From Eledone cirrhosa (taxonomy: Eukaryota): 64,000 bases of DNA. The notes under the pieces are model-generated. The model had not been told where the DNA came from, made no database searches, and was given only the letters and a program-made list of their open reading frames with translations. Positions 4,830 to 50,848 of this stretch are shown one piece after another. The position numbers and the translations under genes were made by a program. The stretch covers positions 264,802,001 through 264,866,000 of the forward strand of contig OZ024743.1 in NCBI GenBank assembly GCA_964016885.1. The letters are read 5' to 3'. Every line of letters begins with the position of its first letter. Position 1 is the first letter of the stretch.

Positions 4830-6237
4830 TATATTTATATACACACACATAAATATATTTCCATAGCATACATAAATATATATTCACTCTTGCAATTACG
4901 GGTGATTGTGTACCTTGTTGCCTTTAGTCATTAACATATAAACCTAAGGAAGCTAAAACATTAAAAGGTAAAAAATAAGCATGAATGCATGTAATTAGGG
5001 GAAAGGTGTACTCATAAATGTTACTCTATATAGAATTATAGTGAGTTGCTATTTAGAATATTTAATTAGGTTTATAGTATTTAAATGTTCTTCGTATACT
5101 GTGATTACAAACTATGATCAGTTCCTGCCTTTTATTTAATAAATGGTACTTAGATTTAGTAATTTCCAAGATCTCCCCTGAACATAATCTCCATTCCCTA
5201 CTGTTCCCAAGATATGGAGTTCTTTGTAGAAGAAGGTGTTCCGCGATAACTTGAAATCTATTTTTTTCTTTTTAGAATTATTTACCGCTTCAGATAAAGA
5301 TGTGGTGATAGCTAGTTTAGTATTGTTGAAACTACTAGAGTGTGCGTAAAATACTTTCTTAAATGTGTTTGATGTAGATCCTATATATGTTTTGTTGGAG
5401 TCTGTAGTAGACACAGTGCATTTATATATTACATTATTAATCAAACATTTGCCATTTAAGTGGCAAATGCTTCTATTTCTGCAAATACAGCCATACGTAA
5501 GATGGTTGTTGGGGGTGCCCATACTATATGATTAATCCTGGAGCTATTCCTATTGTAATTAATGATAGCAGGAGAATGAAGGTTGCTTTTTGGGTGGTTT
5601 GGTGCTAGCGTTGTATTGTGATTTTGTGTTCTGTTGTTTTTGTGTTGGTGATTTGGGTATTTGTGTTTTCTAGGTTTTCTAGGTTGTATTATTTGCCTTT
5701 TTAAAAGGTGCAGTCCTATTTAAATTATGTTGTGTTGGTGTAGTCATATTATTTTTAATTTTATAAATGTTGTAGTTGCTTATTTTATGCTGGAGATTGC
5801 TTGATGTAGAGTATGAGAATTTAACAGTATATTTGTTAAATATGAGCAGAGTCCATGGATCCCATCGTAATATCGAATAAGTTGTTATATGTGTTTCTCG
5901 TCCAGTATTCTTCTTGTAAGTTTAGTAAAGTTTTTCTAGGGTGAGTTACGATGTTGATTTCCTCAGTAGATAAATCCGATCTATTTCTGGTAAAGATCAG
6001 TGCTTTATTTAAAAGAATTGGAGAAATCGAAGAATACTAAGAATCGATGTCGAATTAAATGAATGAAGCTGAGTTTTTATTCCCAATGCTAGTGAAGCAT
6101 TCAATAACTTGGGAAGTGTTATCCCATATTGGAAGTGTTACACATTTTCTAATTTGCGGAATGATACGATCAATAATCTTTTTGCTGATATTACAGATAT
6201 CAGATTTTGATGGGCATATCAGTCTAATAGATGGGTT
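4830..6237 (-). mobile_element. Decayed Penelope-like element: RT N-terminal fragment, deletion, GIY-YIG endonuclease, 3' UTR
   Basis: ORF 6055-6381 has NPSIRLICPSKSDICNISKKIIDRI...WDNTSQVI...SFI (PLE RT); ORF 5136-5522 has NNVIYKCTV...TYIGSTSNTFKK..YAH (GIY-YIG). Confidence 0.85.
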
Positions 6238-6912
6238 CAACCATCTTACGTATGGCTGTAATTGCTGAAATAGAAGCATTTGCTCCTTAAATAGCAACAG
6301 TTTTTTTAATAATGTAATATATAAATGCACTGTGTCTACTACAGACTCCAACAAAACATATATAGGATCTACATCAAACACATTTAAGAAAAGATTTTAC
6401 GCACACGCTAGTAGTATCAACAATACTAAACTAGCTAACACCACATCTTTAGCTGAAGCGGTAAGTAATTATAAAAAGAAAAAAATAGATTTCAAGTTAT
6501 CGTGGAACACCATTCTACAAAGAACTCCATATCTTGGGAACAGGAGGGAATGCAGATTATGATCAGGGCAGATCTTGGAAATTAATAAATCTAAGGACGA
6601 TTTATTAAATAAAATGCAGGAACTGATCATAGTTTGTAATCACCGTATACGAAGAACATTTAAATACTATAAACCTAATTAAATACTATAAACCTAATTA
6701 AATATTTTAAATAGCAACTCACTATAATTCTATATAGAGTAACATTTATTAGTACCCCCTTTCCCCTAATTATATGCATTCATGCTTATTTTTAACCTTT
6801 CAATGTTTTAGCTTCCTTAGGTTTATGCGTTAATGACAAAAGGCAACAAGGTACACAACCACCCGTAATTGCATGAGTAAATATATATCTATGTATGATA
6901 TAGAAATATATT

Positions 6913-14326: not shown

Positions 14327-14676
14327 TCCGTTGTCAGTGTTGAACAAAAGGGCAACGATGGTTGCTAAACACTGTACGGCTTAATTCAAGATGTTTGTTT
14401 ACAAACAAACCGAGCATTATAATAAATGTTTGATAAATCCATACGTACATATACATATGTGTGCATGTATGTATATATATACATACTACTGTACGCCTGT
14501 ATACATATATGTATGTACGTATACATACTTATATTTAAGTAACAGCCGTACTAACAGTGAGAAATGAAATTTCTTTTCACTTTTTCGATCTATATATATA
14601 TATAAAGAAAAAGAGATGGAATCGAAAATGCAACTGGAGTCTTATTTTTTTTTTAAATATATATATTTATTTGGTT

Positions 14677-14714
14677 CCTTTACCGGTTTCGCAGTTCTTC
14701 TGCTTTTCAAAAGG
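14677..14714 (-). ncRNA. Type I hammerhead motif, U3-A8 core variant (family B)
   Basis: Reverse complement of 14776-14813. Confidence 0.75.
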
Positions 14715-14775
14715 TGAGTTGAGATGGAGGGTCTGTGGTTTTTCTGAAAAACCACAGACCCTACATCTCAACTCA

Positions 14776-14813
14776 CCTTTTGAAAAGCAGAAGAACTGCG
14801 AAACCGGTAAAGG
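14776..14813 (+). ncRNA. Type I hammerhead motif, U3-A8 core variant (family B)
   Basis: cctt-TTGAAAA-gcag-aagaa-ctgc-GAAA-ccgg-TA-aagg. Confidence 0.8.
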
Positions 14814-14945
14814 AACCAAATAAATATATATATTTTAAAAAAAAATAAGACTCCAGTTGCATTTTCGATTCCATCTCTTTTTTTTTATACTTTCACTCGT
14901 GTAGGACACCTCGGTTATTTTTCATTTTGTTAAAAAAAACCTCAC

Positions 14946-15059
<114 letters not shown>

Positions 15060-20413: not shown

Positions 20414-20800
<387 letters not shown>

Positions 20801-21322
20801 CATATATATATATATATACAAGATCATGCTTCTGCCTGCTACTGGTATCATATAACCAAGTACAGTCTGCGAATTTTCGGCGACCGAACCAGCTCCCCGG
20901 CAGACCCTGGTCTGGTAAGGAAGATTTGAGAAACCCCAGGAGCATAACAAAAACAAGACCTTTTAAAAGGGCGAATGAAGTCCTGAGAGCCAACGGCCAT
21001 CGTCCAGAACTATGGGTTAAATAACCTCAATTGGCCAAACGTTGACAGTAGGGCTATACCCCTGACATGACCAAAACCGTACAGAAATTGGCGGTGGTTA
21101 ACCAGGGAAGGGTTCCTTTTACAGGAGTGAGAAGGCTCTGTATTGGATTGGATATATATATACATATATAGATAGATACACACAAAAATATATGCAGACA
21201 GGCTCATAGATATGTATCTACATACATGCATAAACAAATACATACATACATACATATATAAACAGATGCATACATATACATTTTATTCAGTCCTTAAATC
21301 AGTTTCTGAGAGTGACATTTAT

Positions 21323-24927: not shown

Positions 24928-26924
24928 ATGGCTAATTCACCTCTGCACCAAACAGCTGAAAGCCTTCTTCACAAATTAACACCTCACACCGACACCACCA
25001 TTGTAAATGTTACTACGTTTGCCAACTCTAAAAAAAATATAAGCACTAGCAATATTTTAAATTTGTCTCAGGCAGACATTCATTTCCCGCCATTACCAAT
25101 GACTGCAGGTGTTAAAGCCTCCACCGCCACCACCACCGCGACAACCACCACCCCCACCACCACTGCGACAACAGAAACAAAAGAAGAAAAAAATAAATTA
25201 ACTCGTGATGTCGAAATGAAATCAAGCAAAATGGACTCTTCCCCACCAAAGACGACTGACGTCACCACAACCACAACTGAAACTAAAATTAATATTAACA
25301 CAAATAACGATAGCAACAACAACAACAATGACATTATAAAATCGACCCTCAGTTTCGCCAGATTAGCAAAACAGTTCGAAGCATTTACGGTAACTCAGGA
25401 GGGTTTAGAAAATGCCAAACAAATGGTAAAGAAAGATGGGTACAGGGTCAGCCCCCCCCCCCACACACACACCTAATAAAATGGAGCATCGGCGCCTATG
25501 CACCGTGTCGTATCGAACAATAAATGTAAAATCGCGCCGATTTGAACGGGCATCCGAGTCCCAAATCCAAAAAGCTTTGGGACATGTGTGGGCAAGAAAA
25601 ACCCACATCAGACGTGGGCAGAAGTATGGAACCGTGGACGTGTTCTTTGAAACACCAGAGGAGGCTAGAGAACATTCCATGGCCCCATTAAGAAGTGACG
25701 ACTTCTCACTCGTCCCAAGCTATTGTGGCCAGAGACTCGTAATGATCAGGGTGACCCACGTTCCACCGGCCATCGAAATTCCCTTGCTAATAGCGGCCGT
25801 CCTCGCCGGCATCGAAGCCAACACAAAAATAATAGCAATAGCAAAAGAAAAGCAAGAGAACTGGTCCGGATCTGGGATGGAGCTCCTGATCCAAGCGGAC
25901 CAAAAAAGCATTGAGGAAATCCCAGAGGTAATAGACCTCACTGACGGCAGCCACCTCACGGTAATTGTCGAGGGCAGAAGACCTAGGTGTGTCGTTTGTG
26001 GTGAAGGAACCCACCTAAGGGATTTCTGCCCTCAGGCTAAAAGGTTGAGGCCACCTCTCCTACCCACCCCAGTGACACAACCATCAACACCACCAGTAGC
26101 AGAGATGGCAGCAACAACTGTAGCAGCAACAACAGAAGCAACTATAACAGCAACAACCCCAGCAACAGTAGCAAAACCAACACCACCACCACCAGCAAAA
26201 CCAACACCACCACCACCCAACGCTTCAGAACTAGCACCAGCGCCTACACCATCCACCACGCCACAACCAAAACTAACGCCTGTGGAGGATTTTCCACTCC
26301 CCGGCCTATCACAACTGGAGACAGATTGTGACGACGAGGAGTGGGAAACGATATCCGGAAAAAAAAAGAAACCAAAAAAGAAAAAAATATCTTCCTTCCC
26401 CCTCCAAAAACAAAATACAGAGGGAAACAAGTAAACTAAGAAACAAAAAAGTTAGGACAGATATACCACCATCCAGACCAGCATCACCAACCCCATCAAC
26501 CCAAACACCAACACCATCACCATCATTAACCCCAACACCACCATCACCTACACCACAAAAGTCACCAAAATGCGAAACAGAAACAAACCCACAACAAACG
26601 CAAACAAAACAAAACAACCAAAACGATACACACTACACAGCATTAAATTTGAACAACAAGCAATTATTACACTACATCCAACACAACACCAGCATCACAG
26701 AAAAAGACTACACAACAACCCCAAAATTCACACCACCTCCACACATACAAATCACTCGCATCACACAGAAAACGTACATGACACTAAAACAAAAATTCCC
26801 CAAAGACATCGGAGACATCCGACAAGCACTCTCCAGGAGGATTTATAAGGACATCCTTCCTGAGGAGGCCACAAGCAGTGAAAAGGATGGAAAAACCGTC
26901 CTTCCCCTACGAGAAGTAAGGTAA
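24928..26924 (+). CDS. LINE ORF1 (gag-like, CX2CX4HX4C zinc knuckle, Pro/Thr-rich), split by two homopolymer frameshifts
   Basis: Overlapping ORFs 24928-25476, 25436-26434 and 26328-26924 overlap at a C-run (~25452-25462) and A-runs (~26359-26388); motif CVVCGEGTHLRDFC. Confidence 0.75.
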
Positions 26925-26953
26925 GTGGTCTTTCCCATCTTTTCCTTTTCAAC

Positions 26954-29900
26954 ATGACCTCACTCAGAATAGGCAGCATAAATGCGCGTGGCTTGGGGTC
27001 GTCATGGAAGCAGGGCCACCTGCTCAACGACCTCAGGTCACTAAACATAGATGTAGTGGCCATCAGCGAGACCAGAATCTCCGAAGCACAGGCTTTCGCA
27101 CCGATCTTCGGCGGCTACGATGTGTACGCATCTCCCAGCCGTCCGGGATCGGGGGGAGGAGTTGCTGTGCGTATCGGAGAGGTTTGGATCTTGCCATACG
27201 GGCCATCTTCCTGGACCCAGAAGGTAAGTTGGTGGTGCTGGACGTGACCAGCGGAGACGGGCAAGCTTTCAGGTTAGTGGCCGTCTATGCCCCGACAGGA
27301 GCAGGGCGGCCTGATTTCTTCCGGCGTCTGGAGACCTTTCTTGGAACGTCCCGCTCTTTAGTGTTAGTGGGCGACTGGAACGGGATCTTAGATGCACGCT
27401 GGGATTGTGTGGGATTAGTGGATAGGGAAGGAGAGTGCAAGAGTCTCACCAACCTGCTCAAACGTTTTGAACTGTCTGACAGGTACCGAATGGATTTCCC
27501 GAATGTACCAATGTGGACTTGGACAAATCGCATAGGGTCATCCAGATCATATCTAGATAGAGTATTTTGTAGGGAAATAGATAGGTCTAGCATAGGCTGT
27601 CCACAATTCAAGATAGTCAGCTACACGGACCACAAATTCGTGATCTGTGTGCTTGATTTAGATAGGCTTCATAGACGAGGACCCGGCTACTGGAAGCTAA
27701 ACGCGTCCTTACCAGCGCGCAAGGCCTACAGAGACCGGATTAGCGAACTAGTTAAGCGGGCGTTGACGGGTGCCATCGTCAACAACAAGTGGTGGTTTGC
27801 TCTGAAAAGAGCAATTAGAATAGAGTCCATTAGGTTTAGTAAGACTTTAGCAATAGAGAAAAATAGAGCAGAGGGAGAATTAGTTAGAAAATTAGATGAG
27901 GCGCTTAGCAAAGGCATCGCGACCGACGTACTTGCGGCGAAATTGGCCCTTGACCAATTCTTCAATACAAAGCACGAAGGCTGCGTTGTCAGAGCTAGGG
28001 TGCGTGCTCTCAGACACGAGGGGACGAAAGCCGTTCAATGGGCCCGAGTGGCGGAGGCGCGTCGTGGCAACAAAGCCACGATCCGGTCTTTGGTGGACCA
28101 CGACGGGCGCATGCTACTCGATCCCGGGCAAATGTGTGAAGCTTTTCAGCGACACTTCGCTCAACTGTTCGGGGGCAGTGGCGGGCCGGATCGAGGGATG
28201 GACTTTAGTGTCTACCTCGACGGACTGCCGCGGCTTTCGGCCACTGAGGCGGAGTGTTGCGAAAAGCCGATAACAACCGCTGAAGTACGGGATGCAATGA
28301 CTAGTTGCACAAGGGGCAAATCGCCTGGTTTGGATGGTCTGCCCTATGAACTTTACGTACAAATGCCAAACTTGTTCGGAGGCCTCTTGGCGGACGTCTA
28401 CTGCAACTGGCAACAGAACGGGAGAATTCCCAGTTCTGTGAGCCGAGGAGCGGTGGCGCTGCTGAGAAAGGATCCGAACAAGGGGGATAACATAGATCAT
28501 TTTAGGCCCATAACTCTGCTAAACACAGAGTTCAAGATTTTGGCCAAGGTGCTAGCAAAGAGGTTGGCGCTTGTCGTTGGTGGTCTGGTGGGAGAGGCAC
28601 AGACATGCGCCATTCCCGACAGATCCATCCACGACAACCTCCACCTCATGCGATACATCGTAGAGAGGGTAGCTAGGGAACCTGGCACGGGTGGGTCTTT
28701 GATCAATTTAGATCAGTCGAAAGCCTTTGATAGGGTCGACCATCGTTACCTAGCGGCAGTCCTGAGGGCGGCTGGCTTTGGGCCCGTCTTCAGAGGCTGG
28801 ATCGCTGCCATGCACAGCGACATCTGCTCTGTAGTGAGAGTGAACGGTCACCTTTCGGAACCGTTCAACATCATGCGCTCGGTCCGCCAAGGATGTCCCC
28901 TCTCGTCCCTATTGTACGTATTGACTCTCGAGCCATTACTGCACAAACTGGAGACGTTGAGGGGGGTCCCGCGCGAACTAGGATGCGGAAGATCCGTGTC
29001 AGCATATGCCGACGATGTCACCGTAGTGGTGTCGAACGTCAAACACATCGAGGCGATCGGCACTACACTAAGAGAATACGAAGCGGTGACAGGAGCAATG
29101 ATCAACCAGGAAAAGTCAGTGGGCCTGCAGCTCGGCACCTGGAGAGGCAGGTCCATGCCGTCCAACAGCGTCGTCGGGCGCTGGACGGACGGACCGGTTA
29201 AATTGCTAGGGGTCTGGTTCGGTCCAGACCTCCAGACGGACAAAAACTGGGACGAGGTGACGAGCAGGGTGGCTTCTCTCACCCAGAAATGGGCGGAGAG
29301 GAAGCTATCCCTGAAAGGTCGAGCAGAGGTGGCGAATGCGTACATCGCATCCGTCATCTACTACCGCCTGACCGTCGTACCTTGTCCTAAGCCCCGCCTG
29401 ACTGCGCTGGAGCGTTTGCTCTTTCGCTTCTTGTGGAAGGGACGCGCTCCGATGGTCAGGCGGTCCATCTGCTGTCAACACCCGCTACGTGGAGGGCTGG
29501 GCATGCCGTGGCTGATGATGCGCAGACACGCGCTCAGGCTACGACATCTCCACCTCTTCCTCGACGGTGATCAGGTGTGGTCGCCGTTTGCAAGGCACGT
29601 TTTTCCCCAGCTCGTCTCCTTGACGGAGCTGCAGTCCTGGGTCAAGCGAAGACCGAGAGGGAGCGCCTGGAGACTGGAATGTCTTCACGCGCTCACAGCC
29701 CTCGACCAATCGGGCAATGTGATCGGTGGAAACTCCACCTTGGCGTTCTATAGGGGATTAGTGGAGGGGAAGAGCGACGACGTACTTGGAGAAACTCTAG
29801 GCGTCGACGAAAATCAACTAGCCAATCTCTTCGGAAGGACTTTCGGGCCGGGGCCTATGGACAACTTCCAGAAATCCCTGGCCTGGCAGTGCTACCGAGG

Positions 29901-30372
29901 AGCTTTGCCAGTTCTGGATAAACTCTACAGGCACGGAGGTGCCGTCAGCCGGGCATGTCCGAGATGCGCGCAGGGCGACGAAACCGTCCTGCACGCACTC
30001 GTCCAGTGTCCGAGCATTGCTGACTTGTGGGTTTATGTCGAACACCTGCTGTCACGTGTAGGTCCTATCCGGCTATCAGCTGAGTCCATCGTGAGGATTG
30101 CCCCGCCCCCTTCCTTTATCCTGGAAGGGCAGGCAGTTTTTATTTGTCTGGTGGCCATGGCGAAAGAGATAGTATGGTGGACACGTTTGAAAGGGCTGAA
30201 GACGAGCACTTACCTCTTCGGTGATGCCCTGATTAACTTTTTCAAATTTCATTTGAAAAGGAAAATCAGGGTAGAGAGGGAAGTGCTCTCTTCCCAGCAT
30301 TTTGTTGAAAGATGGGTGAGAGAAGCAAGTATGGCCCGAATGAATGGGCCTTCTCTGAGTATGTGTCTGTAA
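26954..30372 (+). CDS. LINE ORF2: apurinic-like endonuclease, reverse transcriptase, C-terminal Zn motif; one frameshift at ~27170
   Basis: SINARGL, ISET, LVGDWN, YLDRVF, YTDH (APE); KSPGLDGL, FRPITLLN, LDQSKAFDRV, RQGCPLS, YADD (RT); CPRC...ETVLHALVQC. Confidence 0.93.
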
Positions 30373-30657: not shown

Positions 30658-32612
30658 GTTGCATTTATCTTGCTTTATGTTCATACGAGTTATCACCAAG
30701 TCACAACCAGTGACCTCAAGAGACAACAAGCTCCGCCATGTTCGAGAAAGAACATACATACTCACACATGCATCTTTAGTGTTTAGACTTGTGATGTACT
30801 TATATTGACAGAATCTTCCTTAGTATATGGGCAGTTCCCATTAGTACTATCTTTTGTATTTCTCCTATACGCGGGTTTCCTGAGATTTGCGATAAGTAAT
30901 CATTAGACCCCTTAGGTATCATTCCCAGAGCGCCTACAACCACTGGTATTGTTTTAGTTCTCAATTTCCACATTTTTCCAATTTCTATCTCCCAGGTCCT
31001 TATACTTGCTCAATTTTTCAAATGTTTTTATAGATACATTCTTGTCTATTGGAACAGACATATCAATTAGCAGGCATATCCTCTTTTGAAAGTCTTTCAA
31101 TATTATATCAGGTCTGTTTGCATCTATTTTTCGGTCTGTTTGGATGCTAAAGTTCCACAAGATTGAGATGTGATATTTTTCAAGTATGGGAGGTGGTTGA
31201 TGCTCCCACCAATTCTTTTGATGGGGCAGGTCAAAATGCTTACACATTATCCAATGTATGTATTGTGCAGCTCTGTCATGCCTGTTTAGGTATTCGGTTG
31301 GAGCTATAGGACTGCACATTGAAATTATATGGTCTCTGGTTGTTTTTTTGCATACACGGCATAATGGGCTGCACCCATTTTTTATTATGTTGGCTTGGTA
31401 ATTTTTTGTTGGCAGACACTGATCTTGTGCCGATATAATCAGTCCTTCAGTCTCCGATTTCAGTCCAGAGGATGCCAACCACTGATGGGTTAAAGTTTTG
31501 TCAACATCGGGATTGTTAGCTCGTTCTGGGTATTTTCCATACAGAGGCTTTTCTTGCCATTTCTTAGCCAGTTTCTGTAGCAGTTCTTTCTTTGCAGTTA
31601 CTTTTACCTGCTTTGCTTTCTCTGTGTTTTCCATTTCAGCAGTAAATGGGACTTCTGAAATGTGTAGTCCATTACTGTATCTTTGTGCATCTTTTGTAAT
31701 GGAATATGATCCTTTGATGCTTTCGTGTTTCAAAACGAGTTTGATCATCCAATCATGTGATTCCCTTAGATATGTAGATAATCCAATTGTTGCAGTTTTC
31801 AAAGCAATGTCTAACTGGATTAACCCACGTCCTCCTTCTTTCCTAGGGAGAGATATTCTATCTGTATCTGCCTTTGGGTGATGCATTCTGTGCATGTTTA
31901 AGAATTTTCGAATTTTTGTATCGAGCCTACGGATCTCTGTGCTTGACCAGTTGATGACATTGTAACTGTAGGTTACTACTGGTATGGCAAGCGTGTTTAT
32001 GGCATCGATCCTATTCCTTGCATTCAATTCCGTCCTTAAGATTGCTCTTACTCTGCGGAACATTCCTTCCTTATCCTTTCCCTCATTGTCGAGTGCTTGA
32101 TTCCGTCTCCTTCACAAACACCTAGATATTTGTAAGTTGTTTCTTGATCAAGTTCTCTTATCACGTTCCCCCGATCAAGGTTAATGTCTGAACTCTTCAG
32201 CAGCTTTCCTCTGGTGAACGTTCCTTTGGCGCATTTATCTAGTCCAAACTCCATTTTAATGTCATCACTGAACTGCTCCACAGTGGATAATAGCCCTTGC
32301 AATTGTTCATCATTTTTTGCAAATAGTTTCAGGTCATCCATGTAGTACAAGTGATTAATGGTTTTGTCATAGACTTTATATCCATGTTTTGTTTCATTGA
32401 GCATTTTACTTGATGGTATAAGTGCGATGCAGAATAAAAGCGGTGATAAAGAGTCACCCTGAAAAATTCCACAATTAATATTAACTTCTCCAGCTTCCAG
32501 TGATTTTGTTTAACTATTCAAAAGGAGTGTCGTTTCCCATGTCTTCATACTGAATGACAAAAACCTCCTGACAACGGGGGATATTTTGAAAATCTCTAAA
32601 CATTTTTCAATT
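30658..32612 (-). mobile_element. 5'-truncated R4/Dong-like RLE retrotransposon (RT C-terminal half, CCHC, restriction-like endonuclease), frameshifted
   Basis: GIFQGDSLSP, INHLYYMDDLKLFAK, YKYLG, CRVC...HIISMC, YLNRHD, NRPDII...LIDMSVP...KY; flanked by (TAA)n. Confidence 0.9.
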
Positions 32613-32616
32613 ATTA

Positions 32617-32647
<31 letters not shown>

Positions 32648-32662
32648 CATTATTATTATTAT

Positions 32663-33828
32663 TCCTTGAATCTCAGTCATTGATGTTGGTTAACTGGTAA
32701 GTCCGTTGGAATGAATATCAAGTCACTACCTGCAGCCTCAGATATTCACGACGTATCGGAGGGTTCTTGCTGTTCCCAGCAAGCATGCCTTTTAAAGCGT
32801 TCCAAACAGCGTGAGGGGGCCGATTTTCTTTAACCATCCCTGGAAACTTTTGGAGATAGTCCCCAGTGCGCCTATGACAATCGGGATCACTTTGACTTCA
32901 TGGCAGTTCCAAATCCTTTTTACCTCCCACTTTAAGTCCTGGTATCGGTTAATTTTCTCCCTCTCCTTCTCTTGCACTCTCGTGTCGAATGGGCAGGCCA
33001 CATCCACAATCAGACACGCTCTTTTTTCTTTGTCCACAACCACCAGGTCAGGTCTATTGTAGTCCAGTTTCTTGTCCGTCTGTATCCTAAAATCCCACAG
33101 CACCTTCACCTGATCGTTCTCCATCACCGCCTCTGGCCTATGCTCATACCATTTCTCAGAATGTGGTAAATTGTTTACTTTGCACAGGTGCCAGTGGATC
33201 ACCCTGCCCATCACATCATGTCTCCAGCCCTTATAGTGGGTCTGGGCTAGGCGTTTACACTCGGACACAATGTGAGCCACAGTCTCCTCTCTCTCTCCAC
33301 ATATCCTGCACAGTGGGCTAGCCTCCTCCTTGTAAATATGGTGTTTCACACATTCCTTTTTGAGGGCCTGCTCCTGCGCAACCATTAACATTCCTTCTGT
33401 AGCCTTTTTGAGGTCTCCTCTTCTCAACCAGTTCCATGTCTGTGGATCTCTAAATTCAGTTTTCTCAAAGAAGGTACTATGAAGGGATTTTCTCTGAAGG
33501 CTGCTCTTTCTCCTTGTTGTTATTTACTCCTTGGACATCCCCTGGCCTACTGTCCCCTCCTTCAGTACAGTTCTGAGCATTGGCTCCTTACTATCAGTCA
33601 CGTATTTGTATAGGTTGTTTTTCTCCATCTGAACACAGTCCTCTATGCTGATAAGACCTCTTCCACCCTCAGATCTCCTCAGGTATAGTCTATCGACATC
33701 ACTCCTCTTGTGGAACATGTTGTAGATAGTCAATAGCTTCCTTGTCTTCCTATCCATTTCTTTTTGTTCAGCAACATTCCATCTCAGAATTTCCGCACTG
33801 TACCTAATAATAGACACAGCTCGGGAAT
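32663..33828 (-). mobile_element. Second 5'-truncated R4/Dong-like element (different family)
   Basis: DRLYLRRSEGGRGL, CRICGEREETVAHIVSEC, WRHD, NRPDLVV...VDVACPFD...IVIGALG; (TAA)n on both sides. Confidence 0.9.
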
Positions 33829-33869
33829 TTATTATTATTATTATTATTATTATGATTATTATTATTATT

Positions 33870-34410
33870 GGAGTCATTGATTTTATTTAACTGGAAAGTT
33901 TGTTCACATGAACATCAAGCCGTTACCTGCTGCGTCAGATATTCAGGACGTATCGGATGGTTCTTGCTGTACCCAGCAAGTATGCCTTTTGAAGTGTTCC
34001 AAAAAAGGGGGTTTGACTATTGTTTTTTTAACCATCATTGAAAACTCTTCGAGATAGTATCTAGTCCTCCTATAACCATCGTGACAGCGCCAAATCCTTT
34101 TTAATTCACACTTTAAATCATGGTATCTGTTAATTTTCCCCTCCTTTTCTTGCACTCTTGTGTCAAACGGGCAGACTACCTCTACAATCAGGTACGACCT
34201 TTTTTCCATGCCAAAACCTACCAGGTCAGGCCCATTTGTGTTCTAATGTATTGTCTGTCTGTATCCTAAAATCCCATAGCACCTTCACTTGATCTTTTTT
34301 CTATTATCCACTCTGGCTTATGTTCATACAGTTCCTCAGAATGTGGTAAATGATTTAGTTTGCATAAATGCCAGTGAATCACCTTTCCAATTATATCATG
34401 CCTCCAACCT
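33870..34410 (-). mobile_element. Third, more decayed R4/Dong-like 3' fragment (same family as 32663-33828)
   Basis: GWRHDIIGKVIHWHLCK, VVCPFDTRVQEKE; same 3' UTR. Confidence 0.85.
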
Positions 34411-47699: not shown

Positions 47700-50339
47700 C
47701 ATATATATATATGTACATATATATACGGACATTATAATTAGGGAAGCAGACAAGGGAGGTACTGTTGTCATTATGGATACTGAAAAATATAAAAATTCTA
47801 TGTTCTCTCTCTTACAAAATGCTAATTACTATGAAAGAGTAAAAAACTACCACCAATCAAAAACAATGACCAGATTAAACACACTGATTTGTTGATACCA
47901 GGAAGCCTTAACTAAAAAGGAACGCGATTATTTAACACATTTTGAATAAAAAACCAGCAGCCTTTACGGAGTTCCGAAGATCCACAAGTGTAAAATAATT
48001 AACGATGCCTGTAAACAATCCACCTCAGCCTGCGTGAACTCACAATACCCACACAGACTTGAAATTAAGACCATTTGTAGCGGGCCCACAATGTGAAACA
48101 GACAGACTGAGCAACTCTATAGACATACTACTAAAACCATTTCTCAAACACATACCAAGCCTTGTAAGAGACGATCTATACCTCTTAAACCACCTCCCCA
48201 AACATGTCAACAATGACACTATTATTGTGTCTTTCGATGTAGTGAATCTCTACACAACGATCCCACACCAATGCGGACTAGACGCAATAGGATTCCGGCT
48301 AGAGAAATATCCCAATGAGATACCTGGCAGAATAGAAAAAAGCTTCATCACCGAGGGATTAAAATTTATCTTACAGAACAACTTTTTTGATTTCAATGGC
48401 AGTACTTACAAGCAAATATCGGGGACTGCGATGGGTACAAAATCCGCTCCAACTTATGCCTACTTAGTCATGGCATACTTAGATGTCCAGATATATGAAC
48501 AGTCCAAATCAAAATATGGATTGAACTTCCACAAATATTTATCAGAGAATTGGAAACGCTACTTGGATGATTGTCTCATTATTTGATCGCCACACACTCG
48601 ACCAACTGAAGGATTTCAAAAACTTAATAAACGGCATCAATAACCACATCCAATTCACAATGGAATACAACCATGATCAACTCCCATTTCTGGACATCTT
48701 AATCTTAAAAAAAGACACAAATATTGAAACTGACATACACTACAAACCAACAGATTCCAAACAATACCTGTTATTCACCTCCAACCATCCAACGCACACG
48801 ACGACGAACATTCCTTTTAACCTAGCAAGAAGATTTTGCACAATTGTCTCCAATTATGAAACGCGAAATAAAAGACTTCAAGAATTAAAGGAAATTCTAC
48901 TCGAAAGAGAGTACCCACCATTACTAATAAATAATGGAATAGAAAGGGCTAAAGCAATAGACATTGATGAATTACGAAAACAGAAACAAATTCAAAGTAC
49001 GTCCAATATTCTATCATATATCTCAACACGCAACCCAATAAATGCGGAAGCTTACAACACTATTCACAAGAACATCTCACTACTAAAACTAGACCCAAGA
49101 ATGAAAAAAGCCCTTGAAACATACAAAATAATCAAAAGCAAAAGACAACCGAAATCACTGAAAACATTACTCACCAATGCCAAATTACGTACCACAAACC
49201 CAAAACAAACTGTCAAAAAATGTGGTCGCTTTAATTGTGGAACCTGCACTCACCTCATTGAAGGAAACACGTATATATTTAAATCAGGACAACATTTTGC
49301 TGTAAAAATTCACTTCACTTACTCATCAAAAAATCTGCTTTATGCCATTGAATGTAAAGGATGCAATGAAGATTATATAAAACAAACTAAACTCACACTC
49401 AGAAACAGAATGACAGTTCATCGCCAACAATTACGAGATCCAAACACGAGACAGATACCACTGAGCGCACATCTAGACATATGGGCAAGTAATAAGACAC
49501 CCAAATTCCAAGTCTTCCCATTTTACCTTTGCGCTGACAATACAACAGAACAAATACGAATAAATAAGGAAAATATGTTTATTCAAAAATATAGACCAGC
49601 ATTAAATATGGTTTAATATACATTATATCAACACCATAACATGCTAACCATCCAAACAGACACATACACACACACATCACACCTGCTACTTTAGAAAATA
49701 AAAACCCCGAACTAAATAAACCTTAACATACTTTTGCGCTGACAATACAACAGAACAAATACGAATAAGTAAGGAAAATATGTTCATTCAAAAATATTCC
49801 TACTAACGGAATCATTTTCCTACACACACACACAATATATGTATTTTCTCTTCATCTTAACATGCTAACCATACTCCAACAGACACATACCACCCCCACC
49901 CTCACACACACAACTCCCTCCCGCATTTCTACTAATATAATCACTTTCCTACACATATAAACACACACACAAAATATATATATTCTCTCCATCTTAACAT
50001 ACTCCCCCCCCCCACACACATAACACCCATACACACACACACACCTCCCTCCCCCATTACTACTAATAGAATCATCTTCCTATACACACACACACACACA
50101 TACACACACACATCACACAAATAAACATACATATCTTTACTTTCTTTATTTCAATAGAAAATCTGAATTCTGACACCCCAGCGAACTAACCATATTCTCT
50201 GAACCAGAACAATTCTCCCACCCCATTTCTCTTGACCATTATCTTTTGCGTGTCATAAAATTCTTTAAAAAGGCTACAGAATAAATTTCCAAATACGGGC
50301 ACGAAATTTAATAAAAACTTGTTCACGTGATAGCCATAA

Positions 50340-50580
50340 TTTCATTTATAACCAATCAAATTACGTTTATTAAAAAAAAAGCCTTCGTGAGCCCCCCTTT
50401 TTTTAAGTTAAAAGAAATTCAGACACACATATATGAAAAAACAACCTGAGCCCCCTCTCCCCTTGTTTGAAGAACTTTGTATCGCGAACTGGCGCGAAAT
50501 TTATTATAATTATTGACCAATCAATCAAATTACTTCTCTAAAATCCTGGCGTTTCGAGCCTCTTTTTTCCATATAAAACA
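50340..50580 (+). promoter_or_regulatory. Putative PLE terminal-repeat promoter: two CCAAT boxes (~50352, ~50517) and TATAAAA (50572-50578)
   Basis: Motifs seen directly; short copies elsewhere start about 35 nt downstream of the TATA. Confidence 0.45.
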
Positions 50581-50639
50581 AGTAACATTCAAAGACCAAC
50601 CAGATTTGAGAAAAACCACCGACCCTCCATCTCTACTCT

Positions 50640-50677
50640 ACTTTTGAAAAGCAGAAGAACTGCGAAACCGGTAAAGG
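50640..50677 (+). ncRNA. Type I hammerhead motif, U3-A8 variant (family B), in the PLE terminal repeat
   Basis: ctt-TTGAAAA-gcag-aagaa-ctgc-GAAA-ccgg-TA-aag. Confidence 0.75.
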
Positions 50678-50808
50678 AACCAAATAAATATATATATATT
50701 TTTTTAAATAAGACTCCAGTTGCATTTTCGATTTCATCTTTTTTTCTTTATACTTTCACTCGTGTAGGACACCTCGGTTATTTTTCATTTTGTAAAAAAA
50801 CCTCACTT

Positions 50809-50848
<40 letters not shown>

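What the first reader, a model, noticed from the sequence alone, without database searches (positions are those of the whole stretch)
50340..50810. Short HHR-bearing copies start about 35 nt downstream of a TATA box in the parent PLE
The PLE 3' region has CCAAT, CCAAT, TATAAAA (50572), then the HHR (50640). The two independent solo copies (14746 onward; 20800 backward) begin at positions equivalent to ~50607-50610 and end at the element end. That fits a ~200-nt Pol II transcript from the terminal-repeat promoter being retrotransposed as a SINE-like mini-element with an uncleaved ribozyme, always next to (TA)n.
Basis: partly seen in the sequence, partly recalled or inferred. Interest (0 to 1): 0.8.

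Follow-up and report, generated by a model that had tools for sequence, protein, structure and literature searches.

The report
Penelope solo repeats: run-off cDNA fossils
The short ribozyme-bearing copies are detached terminal repeats of a Penelope-type jumping gene, and their matching start points likely mark where reverse transcription ran off the front end of the RNA, a testable clue to how these poorly understood elements copy themselves, rather than a separate SINE.

Summary
The observation largely holds. TATAAAA (50572), CCAAT boxes and a minimal U3-A8 hammerhead (50640-50677) lie in the 3' repeat (pLTR) of a broken, 5'-truncated Neptune-type Penelope-like element. Short copies start at positions equivalent to 50604-50610, 32-38 nt after TATA and 2-8 nt after an initiator-like A (50602).

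The 14746 copy is one arm of a head-to-head pair. Its partner ends 60 nt earlier (50752), a second family-wide 3' end seen in public contigs. An AATAAA lies upstream of both ends. The 3' ends therefore look like the two internal RT start sites known for PLEs, not like an RNA end. No Pol III box, tRNA head or poly(A) tail exists.

Best reading (about 0.5): solo pLTRs made when RT primes internally, runs off the RNA 5' end and fails to jump on. An independent SINE is less likely (about 0.15).

Limits: only two independent events were read at base level. Public DNA shows a 2-4-fold depth step at 50600-50640 in 2 of 4 runs, not one sharp end, with hints of other start points. Transcription is untested. 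Solo and inverted pLTRs are known; the strong-stop/strand-transfer reading was not found in my searches.

The parts
47730..50812 (+). 5'-truncated, broken Neptune-type Penelope-like element, between (TA)n runs (start approximate)
   Evidence: RT remnant, C-x4-C-xx-C linker, degenerate GIY-YIG; 70% identical to intact 772-aa P0001
48038..48586 (+). RT core fragment (frame broken on both sides)
   Evidence: Pfam RVT_1 E=1.5e-5, 25.3 bits, below the 29.6 cut-off
48525..49616 (+). RT thumb, Cys linker and GIY-YIG endonuclease frame
   Evidence: no Pfam hit on its own; 11 of 27 homologues listed carry PF01541
50295..50374 (+). distal promoter-like module: GC-rich motif plus CCAAT (50352)
   Evidence: direct repeats D9 and D10; CCAAT position
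50488..50543 (+). proximal promoter-like module: E2F-like site on the - strand (50492; motif name recalled) plus CCAAT (50517 here, 50521 in the family)
50572..50578 (+). TATAAAA, predicted TATA box at -30
   Evidence: none of the 40 listed substitution rows falls in it, 148 rows not shown
50600..50606 (+). initiator-like site; predicted transcription start A50602 (untested)
   Evidence: 30 nt after the TATA start; fits YYANWYY in this copy, 6 of 7 with the common 50606 G; consensus recalled
50640..50677 (+). minimal type I hammerhead, U3-A8 core variant, palindromic helix III; predicted cleavage after 50673; stem I 3 bp here, 4 bp in the short copies
   Evidence: (100 of 110 cells paired; 9 of 11 pairs change on both sides)
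50683..50688 (+). AATAAA, possible polyadenylation signal, upstream of both 3' ends
   Evidence: similar placement in 6 of 28 related hammerheads
50749..50752 (+). short (tail-less) 3' end; inferred RT start site 1
   Evidence: end of inverted arm; TA loose ends in X1 and X4
50753..50812 (+). 60-nt optional tail ending at the long 3' end; inferred RT start site 2
   Evidence: X1 depth falls from 1.28M (50744-67) to 475k (50792-815)
20593..20803 (-). solo copy B (equivalent to 50604/6-50812), with (TA)n on both sides
14746..14951 (+). solo A forward arm (equivalent to 50610-50812, with tail), (TA)n at the 3' end
14601..14745 (-). solo A inverted arm (equivalent to 50609-50752, no tail), (TA)n at the 3' end; head-to-head palindromic junction centred on 14745

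Best explanation
The short copies are detached terminal repeats (solo pLTRs) of a Neptune-type Penelope-like element, likely made when the element's reverse transcriptase primes at an internal site 150 or 210 nt from the RNA's front end and runs off that end. Steps: (1) Pol II starts at about A50602 from the CCAAT/TATA/Inr promoter in the pLTR (inferred from sequence). The template can be the full-length RNA of a tandem master, or a read-through from any promoter-bearing 3' repeat. (2) The GIY-YIG endonuclease nicks (TA)n (flanks shown; enzyme role from PLE literature). (3) RT starts internally at 50752 or 50812, giving tail-less or tailed 3' ends (the two ends are shown; their origin is inferred from Frangieh 2024). 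(4) RT copies the still-uncleaved hammerhead and stops at the RNA 5' end; 2-8 nt are lost on joining (inferred). (5) One primed strand gives a solo such as B; priming on both target strands gives two run-off cDNAs joined head to head, as in A (inferred). (6) Long copies would need a jump to the RNA's 3' end, or priming at a downstream repeat (inferred, untested). Solos lack the upstream TATA promoter and are predicted to be mostly dead ends.
For: Three 5' ends (two independent events) lie within 50604-50610, 2-8 nt past TATA+30. Two discrete 3' ends 60 nt apart are both fused to (TA)n, in the window and in public contigs. A second PLE family shows the same kind of pair, at core+78 and core+148. 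Event A has exactly the arrangement described for PLEs, inverted repeats with a tail at one end only (PMC8557442 Fig. 2 legend; PMC3846280). In vitro a PLE RT starts internally at two sites flanking the tail, extends both target strands, and does not need hammerhead cleavage (PMC11167929). The terminal segment exceeds the upstream promoter region in summed depth: X1 876k versus 215k in the adjacent upstream bin (291k the highest of 20 upstream bins); X10 893 versus 441. The short arms' stem I variant is only about 20% of X1 depth (179k), less than the terminal excess (over 500k), so short copies seem to come from more than one source type (rough). No Pol III box, tRNA or poly(A). The lone hammerhead cannot close helix III as a monomer but folds as a dimer at -21.1 kcal/mol, which explains why it is uncleaved.
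Against: Only two independent events were read at base level. The transcription start is predicted, not measured. The genome-wide step could only be placed between 50600 and about 50624 in X1, because private changes in the reference break short contigs. In X10 reads the largest step is at 50640 (415 to 873), and 142 reads have heterogeneous loose ends before 50637. None of the 6 loose ends listed for X1 or the 6 for X10 lies at 50604-50610; 449 rows were not shown. X4 and X7 show no step at 50600-50640 and rise only after about 50714; X1 rises a further 1.5-fold there, so many short copies may lack the hammerhead. TATA 33-80 nt upstream of the hammerhead is found in only 5 of 28 related elements (P=0.11) and 1 of the 8 closest. 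Short or partial copies in six other families start at core-7, -9, -52, -79, -97 and -159; with one per family, clustering is untestable. The two arms of A differ at 3 positions plus a gap, no fewer than against B.
Confidence: 0.5

Rival explanations
1. Ordinary 5' truncation: RT copying a long RNA from its downstream repeat usually aborts early, perhaps at the hammerhead structure or at AT-rich microhomologies, and the agreement at 50604-50610 and with TATA is partly chance.
For: PLE insertions are known to be heavily 5'-truncated, with inverted truncated copies (PMC8557442). Depth rises in several steps (50600-24, 50640, after 50714), and other start points are hinted at. TATA is not conserved in most relatives. 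n = 2 events.
Against: Chance of two ends within 6 nt is 0.6-6%, and of TATAAAA at that spacing about 0.3% (post hoc). CCAAT at -81, TATA at -30 and an Inr-like site line up. The short copy as a whole folds no better than shuffles (z=-0.04), so no strong structure marks 50604-50610.
Confidence: 0.25
2. One reading: a discrete ~200-nt Pol II RNA from the terminal-repeat promoter is retrotransposed in trans and forms a SINE-like family that amplifies itself.
For: 5' ends fit TATA+30. Both independent events share a variant held by about 20% of X1 depth (chance about 0.04) and are 97-98% alike, as a young sub-lineage would be. pLTRs suffice in cis for mobilisation in trans (PMC3846280). Non-autonomous PLE derivatives exist (MRC1, PMC8557442; retrozymes, bioRxiv 2026.07.22.740005).
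Against: Two alternative 3' ends with no poly(A) or terminator. The only AATAAA lies inside the copy and would end an RNA before either 3' end. No internal Pol III promoter. The TATA is not carried along. Most of the terminal excess seems to carry the other stem I type. One recently active master element explains the shared variant equally well.
Confidence: 0.15
3. Self-priming on an antisense or fold-back template (Arkhipova 2013) produces the palindromic head-to-head junction, and the common end point is a fold-back hot spot rather than an RNA 5' end.
For: Perfect palindrome at 14745; both arms share one variant absent from B and the long copy; this model was proposed for such junctions in PMC3846280.
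Against: B has the same 5' end with no inversion. The inverted arm stops at the family's own second 3' end, which points to separate priming. A 1-nt loop cannot form a priming hairpin (own knowledge).
Confidence: 0.07
4. Non-LTR retrozyme: tandem hammerhead units self-cleave to monomers or circles that are reverse-transcribed and inserted.
For: Type I dimer-dependent hammerhead, 150-210-nt unit, PLE origin (bioRxiv 2026.07.22.740005). Extra depth downstream of the cleavage site could include cleavage products (50673-50713 was skipped by the tool).
Against: No head-to-tail tandem in the window. No joint from the 3' end back to about 50604 among the 15 of 16 joints shown. Copy ends lie about 65 nt upstream of the cleavage site, not at it.
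Confidence: 0.03

Closest known systems
Neptune-clade Penelope-like elements and their pLTR, tail and inverted-pLTR insertions (Craig et al. 2021 PMC8557442; Arkhipova et al. 2013 PMC3846280)
   Same: C-terminal GIY-YIG with Cys linker, (TA)n targets, hammerhead in the pLTR, optional tail at one end, head-to-head inverted repeat with palindromic junction, solo pLTRs, TATA plus Inr-like motifs in a pLTR
   Different: Tail is 60 nt rather than 30-40. Here an insertion consists only of two pLTR arms. Those papers (passages or sections seen) ascribe solos to deletion or recombination and inversions to self-priming, not to run-off at the RNA start.
Poseidon element PAc of Anolis (Frangieh et al. 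2024 PMC11167929)
   Same: Two internal RT start sites bounding the tail; AT-rich target; uncleaved hammerhead RNA as template; both strands extended
   Different: Poseidon clade; its hammerhead and tail overlap the ORF start, whereas here no ATG lies between hammerhead core and tail end. The parts read do not describe genomic solo run-off products or strand transfer.
Minimal PLE hammerheads including the U3-A8 core variant (Cervera and de la Pena 2014 PMC4209133)
   Same: Short helix I, palindromic helix III, U3-A8 covariation, mostly found as single dispersed motifs
   Different: Helix II is 4 bp with no extra nucleotide after A9; activity of this motif is untested
Drosophila virilis Penelope promoter (Schostak et al. 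2008 PMC2377424)
   Same: Transcription start inside the pLTR; partial tandem needed for expression
   Different: Penelope's promoter is internal and TATA-less; here an upstream CCAAT/TATA promoter is predicted, which solos would lose
Hammerhead SINE-like repeats of Schistosoma and animal non-LTR retrozymes (review PMC6765202; bioRxiv 2026.07.22.740005)
   Same: Short non-coding, hammerhead-bearing, PLE-related repeats
   Different: Those are tandem units cut at the ribozyme (Pol III in Schistosoma). These copies are dispersed, end away from the cleavage site and have no Pol III boxes.
Retroviral/LTR minus-strand strong-stop DNA (R-U5); recalled, not from a call
   Same: Works like it: internal priming near the RNA 5' end, run-off, polyadenylation signal inside the repeated part
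   Different: Target-primed by a GIY-YIG nick in (TA)n, not tRNA-primed; no integrase; strand transfer not shown here

Membership tests
Penelope-like element, Neptune clade (long copy) | PLE-type RT followed by C-terminal GIY-YIG endonuclease | tested here: met
   70% identity to intact P0001; homologues with RVT_1 and, in 11 of 27, PF01541; this copy is broken
Penelope-like element, Neptune clade (long copy) | C-x2-5-C-xx-C linker before GIY-YIG | tested here: met
   C642, C647, C650 invariant in 17 homologues and present in the window frame
Penelope-like element, Neptune clade (long copy) | Placement in the Neptune clade on an RT tree (versus Nematis, which also has the linker) | not tested
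   no named reference set was fetched; the clade label rests on linker, domain order, hammerhead and TA targeting
PLE solo / inverted pLTR | Sequence equals the element's 3'-terminal repeat, with hammerhead | tested here: met
PLE solo / inverted pLTR | Optional tail (two 3' ends) | tested here: met
   50752 and 50812
PLE solo / inverted pLTR | Same segment repeated upstream of the ORF in a full-length tandem master | not testable with these tools
   no genome held; the window copy is 5'-truncated; seen in relatives L002, L013, L086
Minimal type I hammerhead | Core boxes with a 3-8 pair, stems I and II, palindromic helix III, UH cleavage site | tested here: met
   90.9% of cells paired against 29-42% when slid; rows were picked by a scan for this motif, so the pairing is partly by construction
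Minimal type I hammerhead | Rfam hammerhead family match | tested here: not met
   none at the gathering score or at E<=10; the Rfam model tried does detect canonical hammerheads elsewhere
Minimal type I hammerhead | Self-cleavage activity | not testable with these tools
   needs an in vitro assay as monomer and dimer
SINE | Internal Pol III promoter (A/B boxes) or tRNA/5S/7SL-derived head | tested here: not met
   no A or B box, no tRNA, no Rfam match
SINE | Poly(A) or simple-repeat tail templated by the RNA 3' end; target-site duplication | tested here: inconclusive
   no poly(A); (TA)n lies on both sides of B and at both ends of A, as a target would; a duplication cannot be read inside (TA)n
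SINE | Copies beget copies (own lineage) | tested here: inconclusive
   both events share a ~20% variant, but most of the terminal excess seems to carry the other type; no tree possible
Non-LTR retrozyme | Head-to-tail tandem units, each with a hammerhead | tested here: not met
   none in the window; none among 15 of 16 joints shown; not excluded genome-wide

The most novel reading that the evidence does not exclude
Neptune-type PLEs replicate like a target-primed retrovirus. The repeat is organised as U3 (CCAAT/TATA) - R (start, hammerhead, AATAAA) - U5 (RT start 1, tail, RT start 2). The polyadenylated mRNA then has RT start sites only near its 5' end, so every insertion begins as a 150/210-nt strong-stop cDNA that must jump to the RNA 3' end, and the abundant solos and head-to-head pairs are failed jumps. 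This would supply the missing mechanism for regenerating pLTRs and partial tandems. AATAAA lies 4-14 nt after the cleavage site in 6 of 28 related hammerheads (1.15 expected, P=0.001, post hoc), but 22 of 28 lack it.
Probability: 0.25. Interest if true: 0.8.

Novelty: new member of a known kind. Interest (0 to 1): 0.45.

Why it matters
How PLEs rebuild their terminal repeats and inverted ends is an open question: Schostak 2008 says there is no obvious mechanism, and Frangieh 2024 leaves the steps after priming unvalidated. If solo 5' ends mark the RNA start, any genome rich in these copies records the transcription start and both RT start sites, and the strong-stop/strand-transfer model can be tested with one census and one 5'/3' RACE. 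In practice, such 150-210-nt repeats should be annotated as PLE terminal repeats, not as new SINEs. If the ends prove scattered, this is ordinary PLE debris.

Tried and rejected
Own genome: none held, so no census of copies. RNA: no RNA holder listed; not used as evidence either way. Exact hammerhead motif in metagenome contigs: 0 matches. Relatives in viral contigs: none. Earlier findings of the scan: three look-ups, nothing. Rfam: no hammerhead hit. Whole-copy fold no better than shuffles. The sigma-70 scan is irrelevant to a Pol II promoter.

Conserved TATA across relatives: 5 of 28, P=0.11 in the first window of 33-80 nt. A narrower window of 33-50 nt chosen afterwards gave P=0.001, but it excludes this element's own spacing (72 nt), so it is not counted as support.

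Possible 99-nt intron (GT at 50671 inside helix III, AG at 50768-9 after a pyrimidine tract), by analogy with Penelope's 5' intron: donor and acceptor are not conserved in the closest relatives and no such joint is listed in DNA runs; left unsupported. Census of solo 5' ends in other PLE families from host contigs inside MAGs: at most one short copy per family, so no distribution. The WLWD records are not held as genomes. Lunse 2016 on dimer cleavage is not held. SINE and retrozyme membership rejected as in Membership tests.

Full report
WHAT IS THERE. The window is AT-rich, microsatellite-laden animal-type DNA; the host was not determined. From about 47730 to 50812 lies a 5'-truncated, frame-broken Penelope-like element between (TA)n runs. 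Its 363-aa frame is 70% identical to an intact 772-aa RT plus GIY-YIG protein and keeps the C-x4-C-xx-C linker used to recognise Neptune/Nematis elements (PMC8557442, passages). I call it Neptune-type on domain order, linker, hammerhead and TA targeting; no tree was built.

THE OBSERVATION. CCAAT (50352, 50517), TATAAAA (50572) and a minimal hammerhead (core 50644, predicted cleavage after 50673) are present. The hammerhead has a U3-A8 core, a variant described in Schistosoma PLEs (PMC4209133, parts 1-2 of 4 read). In an alignment with 8 related elements, 100 of 110 cells pair and 9 of 11 pairs change on both sides; the rows were chosen by a motif scan, so this is partly by construction. Helix III is a 6-nt palindrome that the monomer fold leaves open, while a two-molecule double hammerhead scores -21.1 kcal/mol against -22.5 for the best cofold. 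BLAST finds three other matches to the terminal region in the window. Copy B (20803 down to 20593) starts at the equivalent of 50604-50606. Event A has a forward arm starting at 50610 and an inverted arm starting at 50609, joined through a perfect palindrome centred on 14745. These starts are 32-38 nt after TATA and 2-8 nt after an initiator-like A at 50602, which is exactly TATA+30 (consensus recalled). Tested after the fact, such agreement is unlikely by chance: about 0.003 for TATAAAA in an 11-nt window, and 0.006-0.058 for two truncations within 6 nt. There are only two independent events.

First, the inverted arm ends at 50752 in (TA)n, 60 nt short of the other copies. Laying four public DNA runs on 50120-50826 shows (TA)n loose ends behind 50748 (28 contigs) and 50752 (55 contigs) in X1 and behind 50748 in X4, so this is a family-wide second 3' end. 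Another PLE family shows the same kind of pair, at core+78 and core+148. This is the PLE tail, which Frangieh 2024 traced in vitro to two RT start sites internal to the RNA; that RT extends both target strands and does not need hammerhead cleavage (PMC11167929, parts 1-2 of 4 read; supplementary Fig. S2, not seen, bears on this). The 3' ends therefore need not be RNA ends. Second, the long copy is an older sibling, not the source: 11-12 substitutions from the short arms, which differ from one another by 3-4, with private changes at 50606, 50620 and 50634. Third, with the near-fixed 50521 T>C the proximal CCAAT sits at 50521-50525, 81 nt before the predicted start, inside a duplicated module that also holds an E2F-like site (motif name recalled). 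Fourth, an AATAAA at 50683 lies upstream of both 3' ends. Among 28 related hammerheads with at least 60 nt downstream (one of 29 dropped as too short), 6 have AATAAA 4-14 nt after the cleavage site against 1.15 expected (P=0.001), including 3 of the 7 closest. The test was chosen after seeing the motif, two of the hits are related families, and 22 of 28 lack it.

GENOME-WIDE SIGNAL, FOR AND AGAINST. In X1 contigs, summed depth is 215k at 50576-99 (17k-291k over 20 upstream bins), 876k and 831k at 50624-71, and 1.29M and 1.28M at 50720-67. In X10 RAD reads it is 441, 893 (50648-71) and 1246 (50744-67). Short terminal copies thus outnumber promoter-bearing ones roughly 2-4-fold in these two runs; the tool warns that such sums are not copy numbers. 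The X1 step lies between 50600 and about 50624 but cannot be sharpened. Against a single start: X10's largest step is at 50640, and 142 reads have mixed AT-rich loose ends before 50637 (agreement 0.42). No listed loose end falls at 50604-50610 (449 rows not shown). X4 and X7 rise only after about 50714. 'Always uncleaved, one start' is therefore not established. The stem I variant in all three short arms makes up 179k of 850-927k in X1. Both events sharing it (chance about 0.04) suggests one recent source, yet it is too rare to account for the terminal excess, so short copies probably arise from several sources. In relatives, TATA upstream of the hammerhead is not general (5 of 28, P=0.11), and single short or partial copies start at core-7, -9, -52, -79, -97 and -159, one per family.

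HOW IT LIKELY WORKS. RNA starts near 50602 (inferred). The endonuclease nicks (TA)n; RT primes internally at 50752 or 50812, copies the uncleaved hammerhead and runs off the RNA 5' end after about 150 or 210 nt (inferred). One primed strand yields B; two yield A, with one tailed and one tail-less arm. Any RNA with this 5' end serves, whether full-length from a tandem master or read-through from a 3' repeat, so no special 200-nt transcript is required. Solos lose the upstream promoter and have no Pol III boxes or tRNA head, so they should rarely propagate. I put this at 0.5, ordinary truncation at 0.25, a self-propagating SINE-like RNA at 0.15, self-priming at 0.07 and a retrozyme at 0.03. If the AATAAA is used, the mRNA has RT start sites only near its 5' end and long copies must arise by strand transfer, as with retroviral strong-stop DNA (recalled analogy). 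That is the novel case, at 0.25.

WHAT IS KNOWN. Solo pLTRs, inverted pLTRs with palindromic junctions, tails at one end, and TATA plus Inr-like motifs in pLTRs are described (PMC3846280, parts 1-4 of 5 read; PMC8557442, passages). Penelope's start lies in the pLTR but its promoter is internal and TATA-less, and pLTR regeneration is called unexplained (PMC2377424, passages). Dispersed single minimal hammerheads and PLE-derived retrozymes are described (PMC4209133; bioRxiv 2026.07.22.740005, parts 1 and 3 of 5 read; review PMC6765202, passages; PMC3681739, passages, added nothing). I did not find solos explained as run-off cDNA, or strand transfer proposed for PLEs, in searches for Penelope-like with solo/pLTR/inverted/strong-stop/tail, run-off/template jump, polyadenylation signal/strand transfer, promoter/non-autonomous or PLE-derived terms; these were seen as listings, and subscription papers are mostly not held. 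No supplements were read.

VERDICT. A real feature and a new member of a known kind: solo and inverted pLTRs of a Neptune-type PLE. The link between 5' ends and the promoter is plausible and partly supported; the SINE label fails its defining tests. Interest 0.45, because a simple census and RACE would test an open mechanistic question.

Noticed in passing
window 50295-50374 and 50488-50543: Duplicated promoter-like module about 170-190 nt apart, each with a GC-rich E2F-like motif (name recalled) followed by CCAAT; X1 loose ends suggest the distal motif is also a full match in the family. This could point to expression in dividing cells.
   Followed up: partly
window 50671-50769: Possible 99-nt intron with its donor inside hammerhead helix III and an acceptor after a long pyrimidine tract; not conserved in the closest relatives.
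   Followed up: partly
window 50637-50640 (run X10) and L013, L121: A possible second class of short copies starting 7-9 nt before the hammerhead core: 142 reads with mixed loose ends before 50637, and single copies at core-9 and core-7 in two other families.
   Followed up: partly
window 49616-50140: The 3' UTR holds about 130-nt CA-rich imperfect tandem repeats, and 49729-49797 duplicates 69 nt from the ORF end (49524-49592, 96%).
   Followed up: no
window 50192-50448: A joint going back 257 nt (50448 to 50192) in X1 (depth 369) and X10 (11 reads): some family members carry a tandem duplication in the upstream promoter region.
   Followed up: no
L002, L004, L007, L008, L009: Close relatives have a very short 3' UTR, often with TGACGT motifs, and an ATG 136-170 nt after the hammerhead core that opens a reading frame before the RT frame (two-frame layout in L002).
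   Followed up: partly
window 5136-6396 (-): A second, decayed PLE of another type (Cys motif plus GIY-YIG-like frame, RT-like remnant); no Pfam hit; the hammerhead scan found none near it.
   Followed up: no
window 24928-30372 (+): Near-intact L1/Tx1-like non-LTR element with an 1150-aa endonuclease-RT-zinc finger frame and upstream frames.
   Followed up: no
window 30954-33886 (-): Fragments of further non-LTR retroelements with RT and C-terminal nuclease-like frames; the two frames tested gave no Pfam hit.
   Followed up: no
G001-G005, L081-L118: Several GTDB 'bacterial' genomes carry PLE-bearing contigs and canonical hammerheads, likely host-animal contamination.
   Followed up: no
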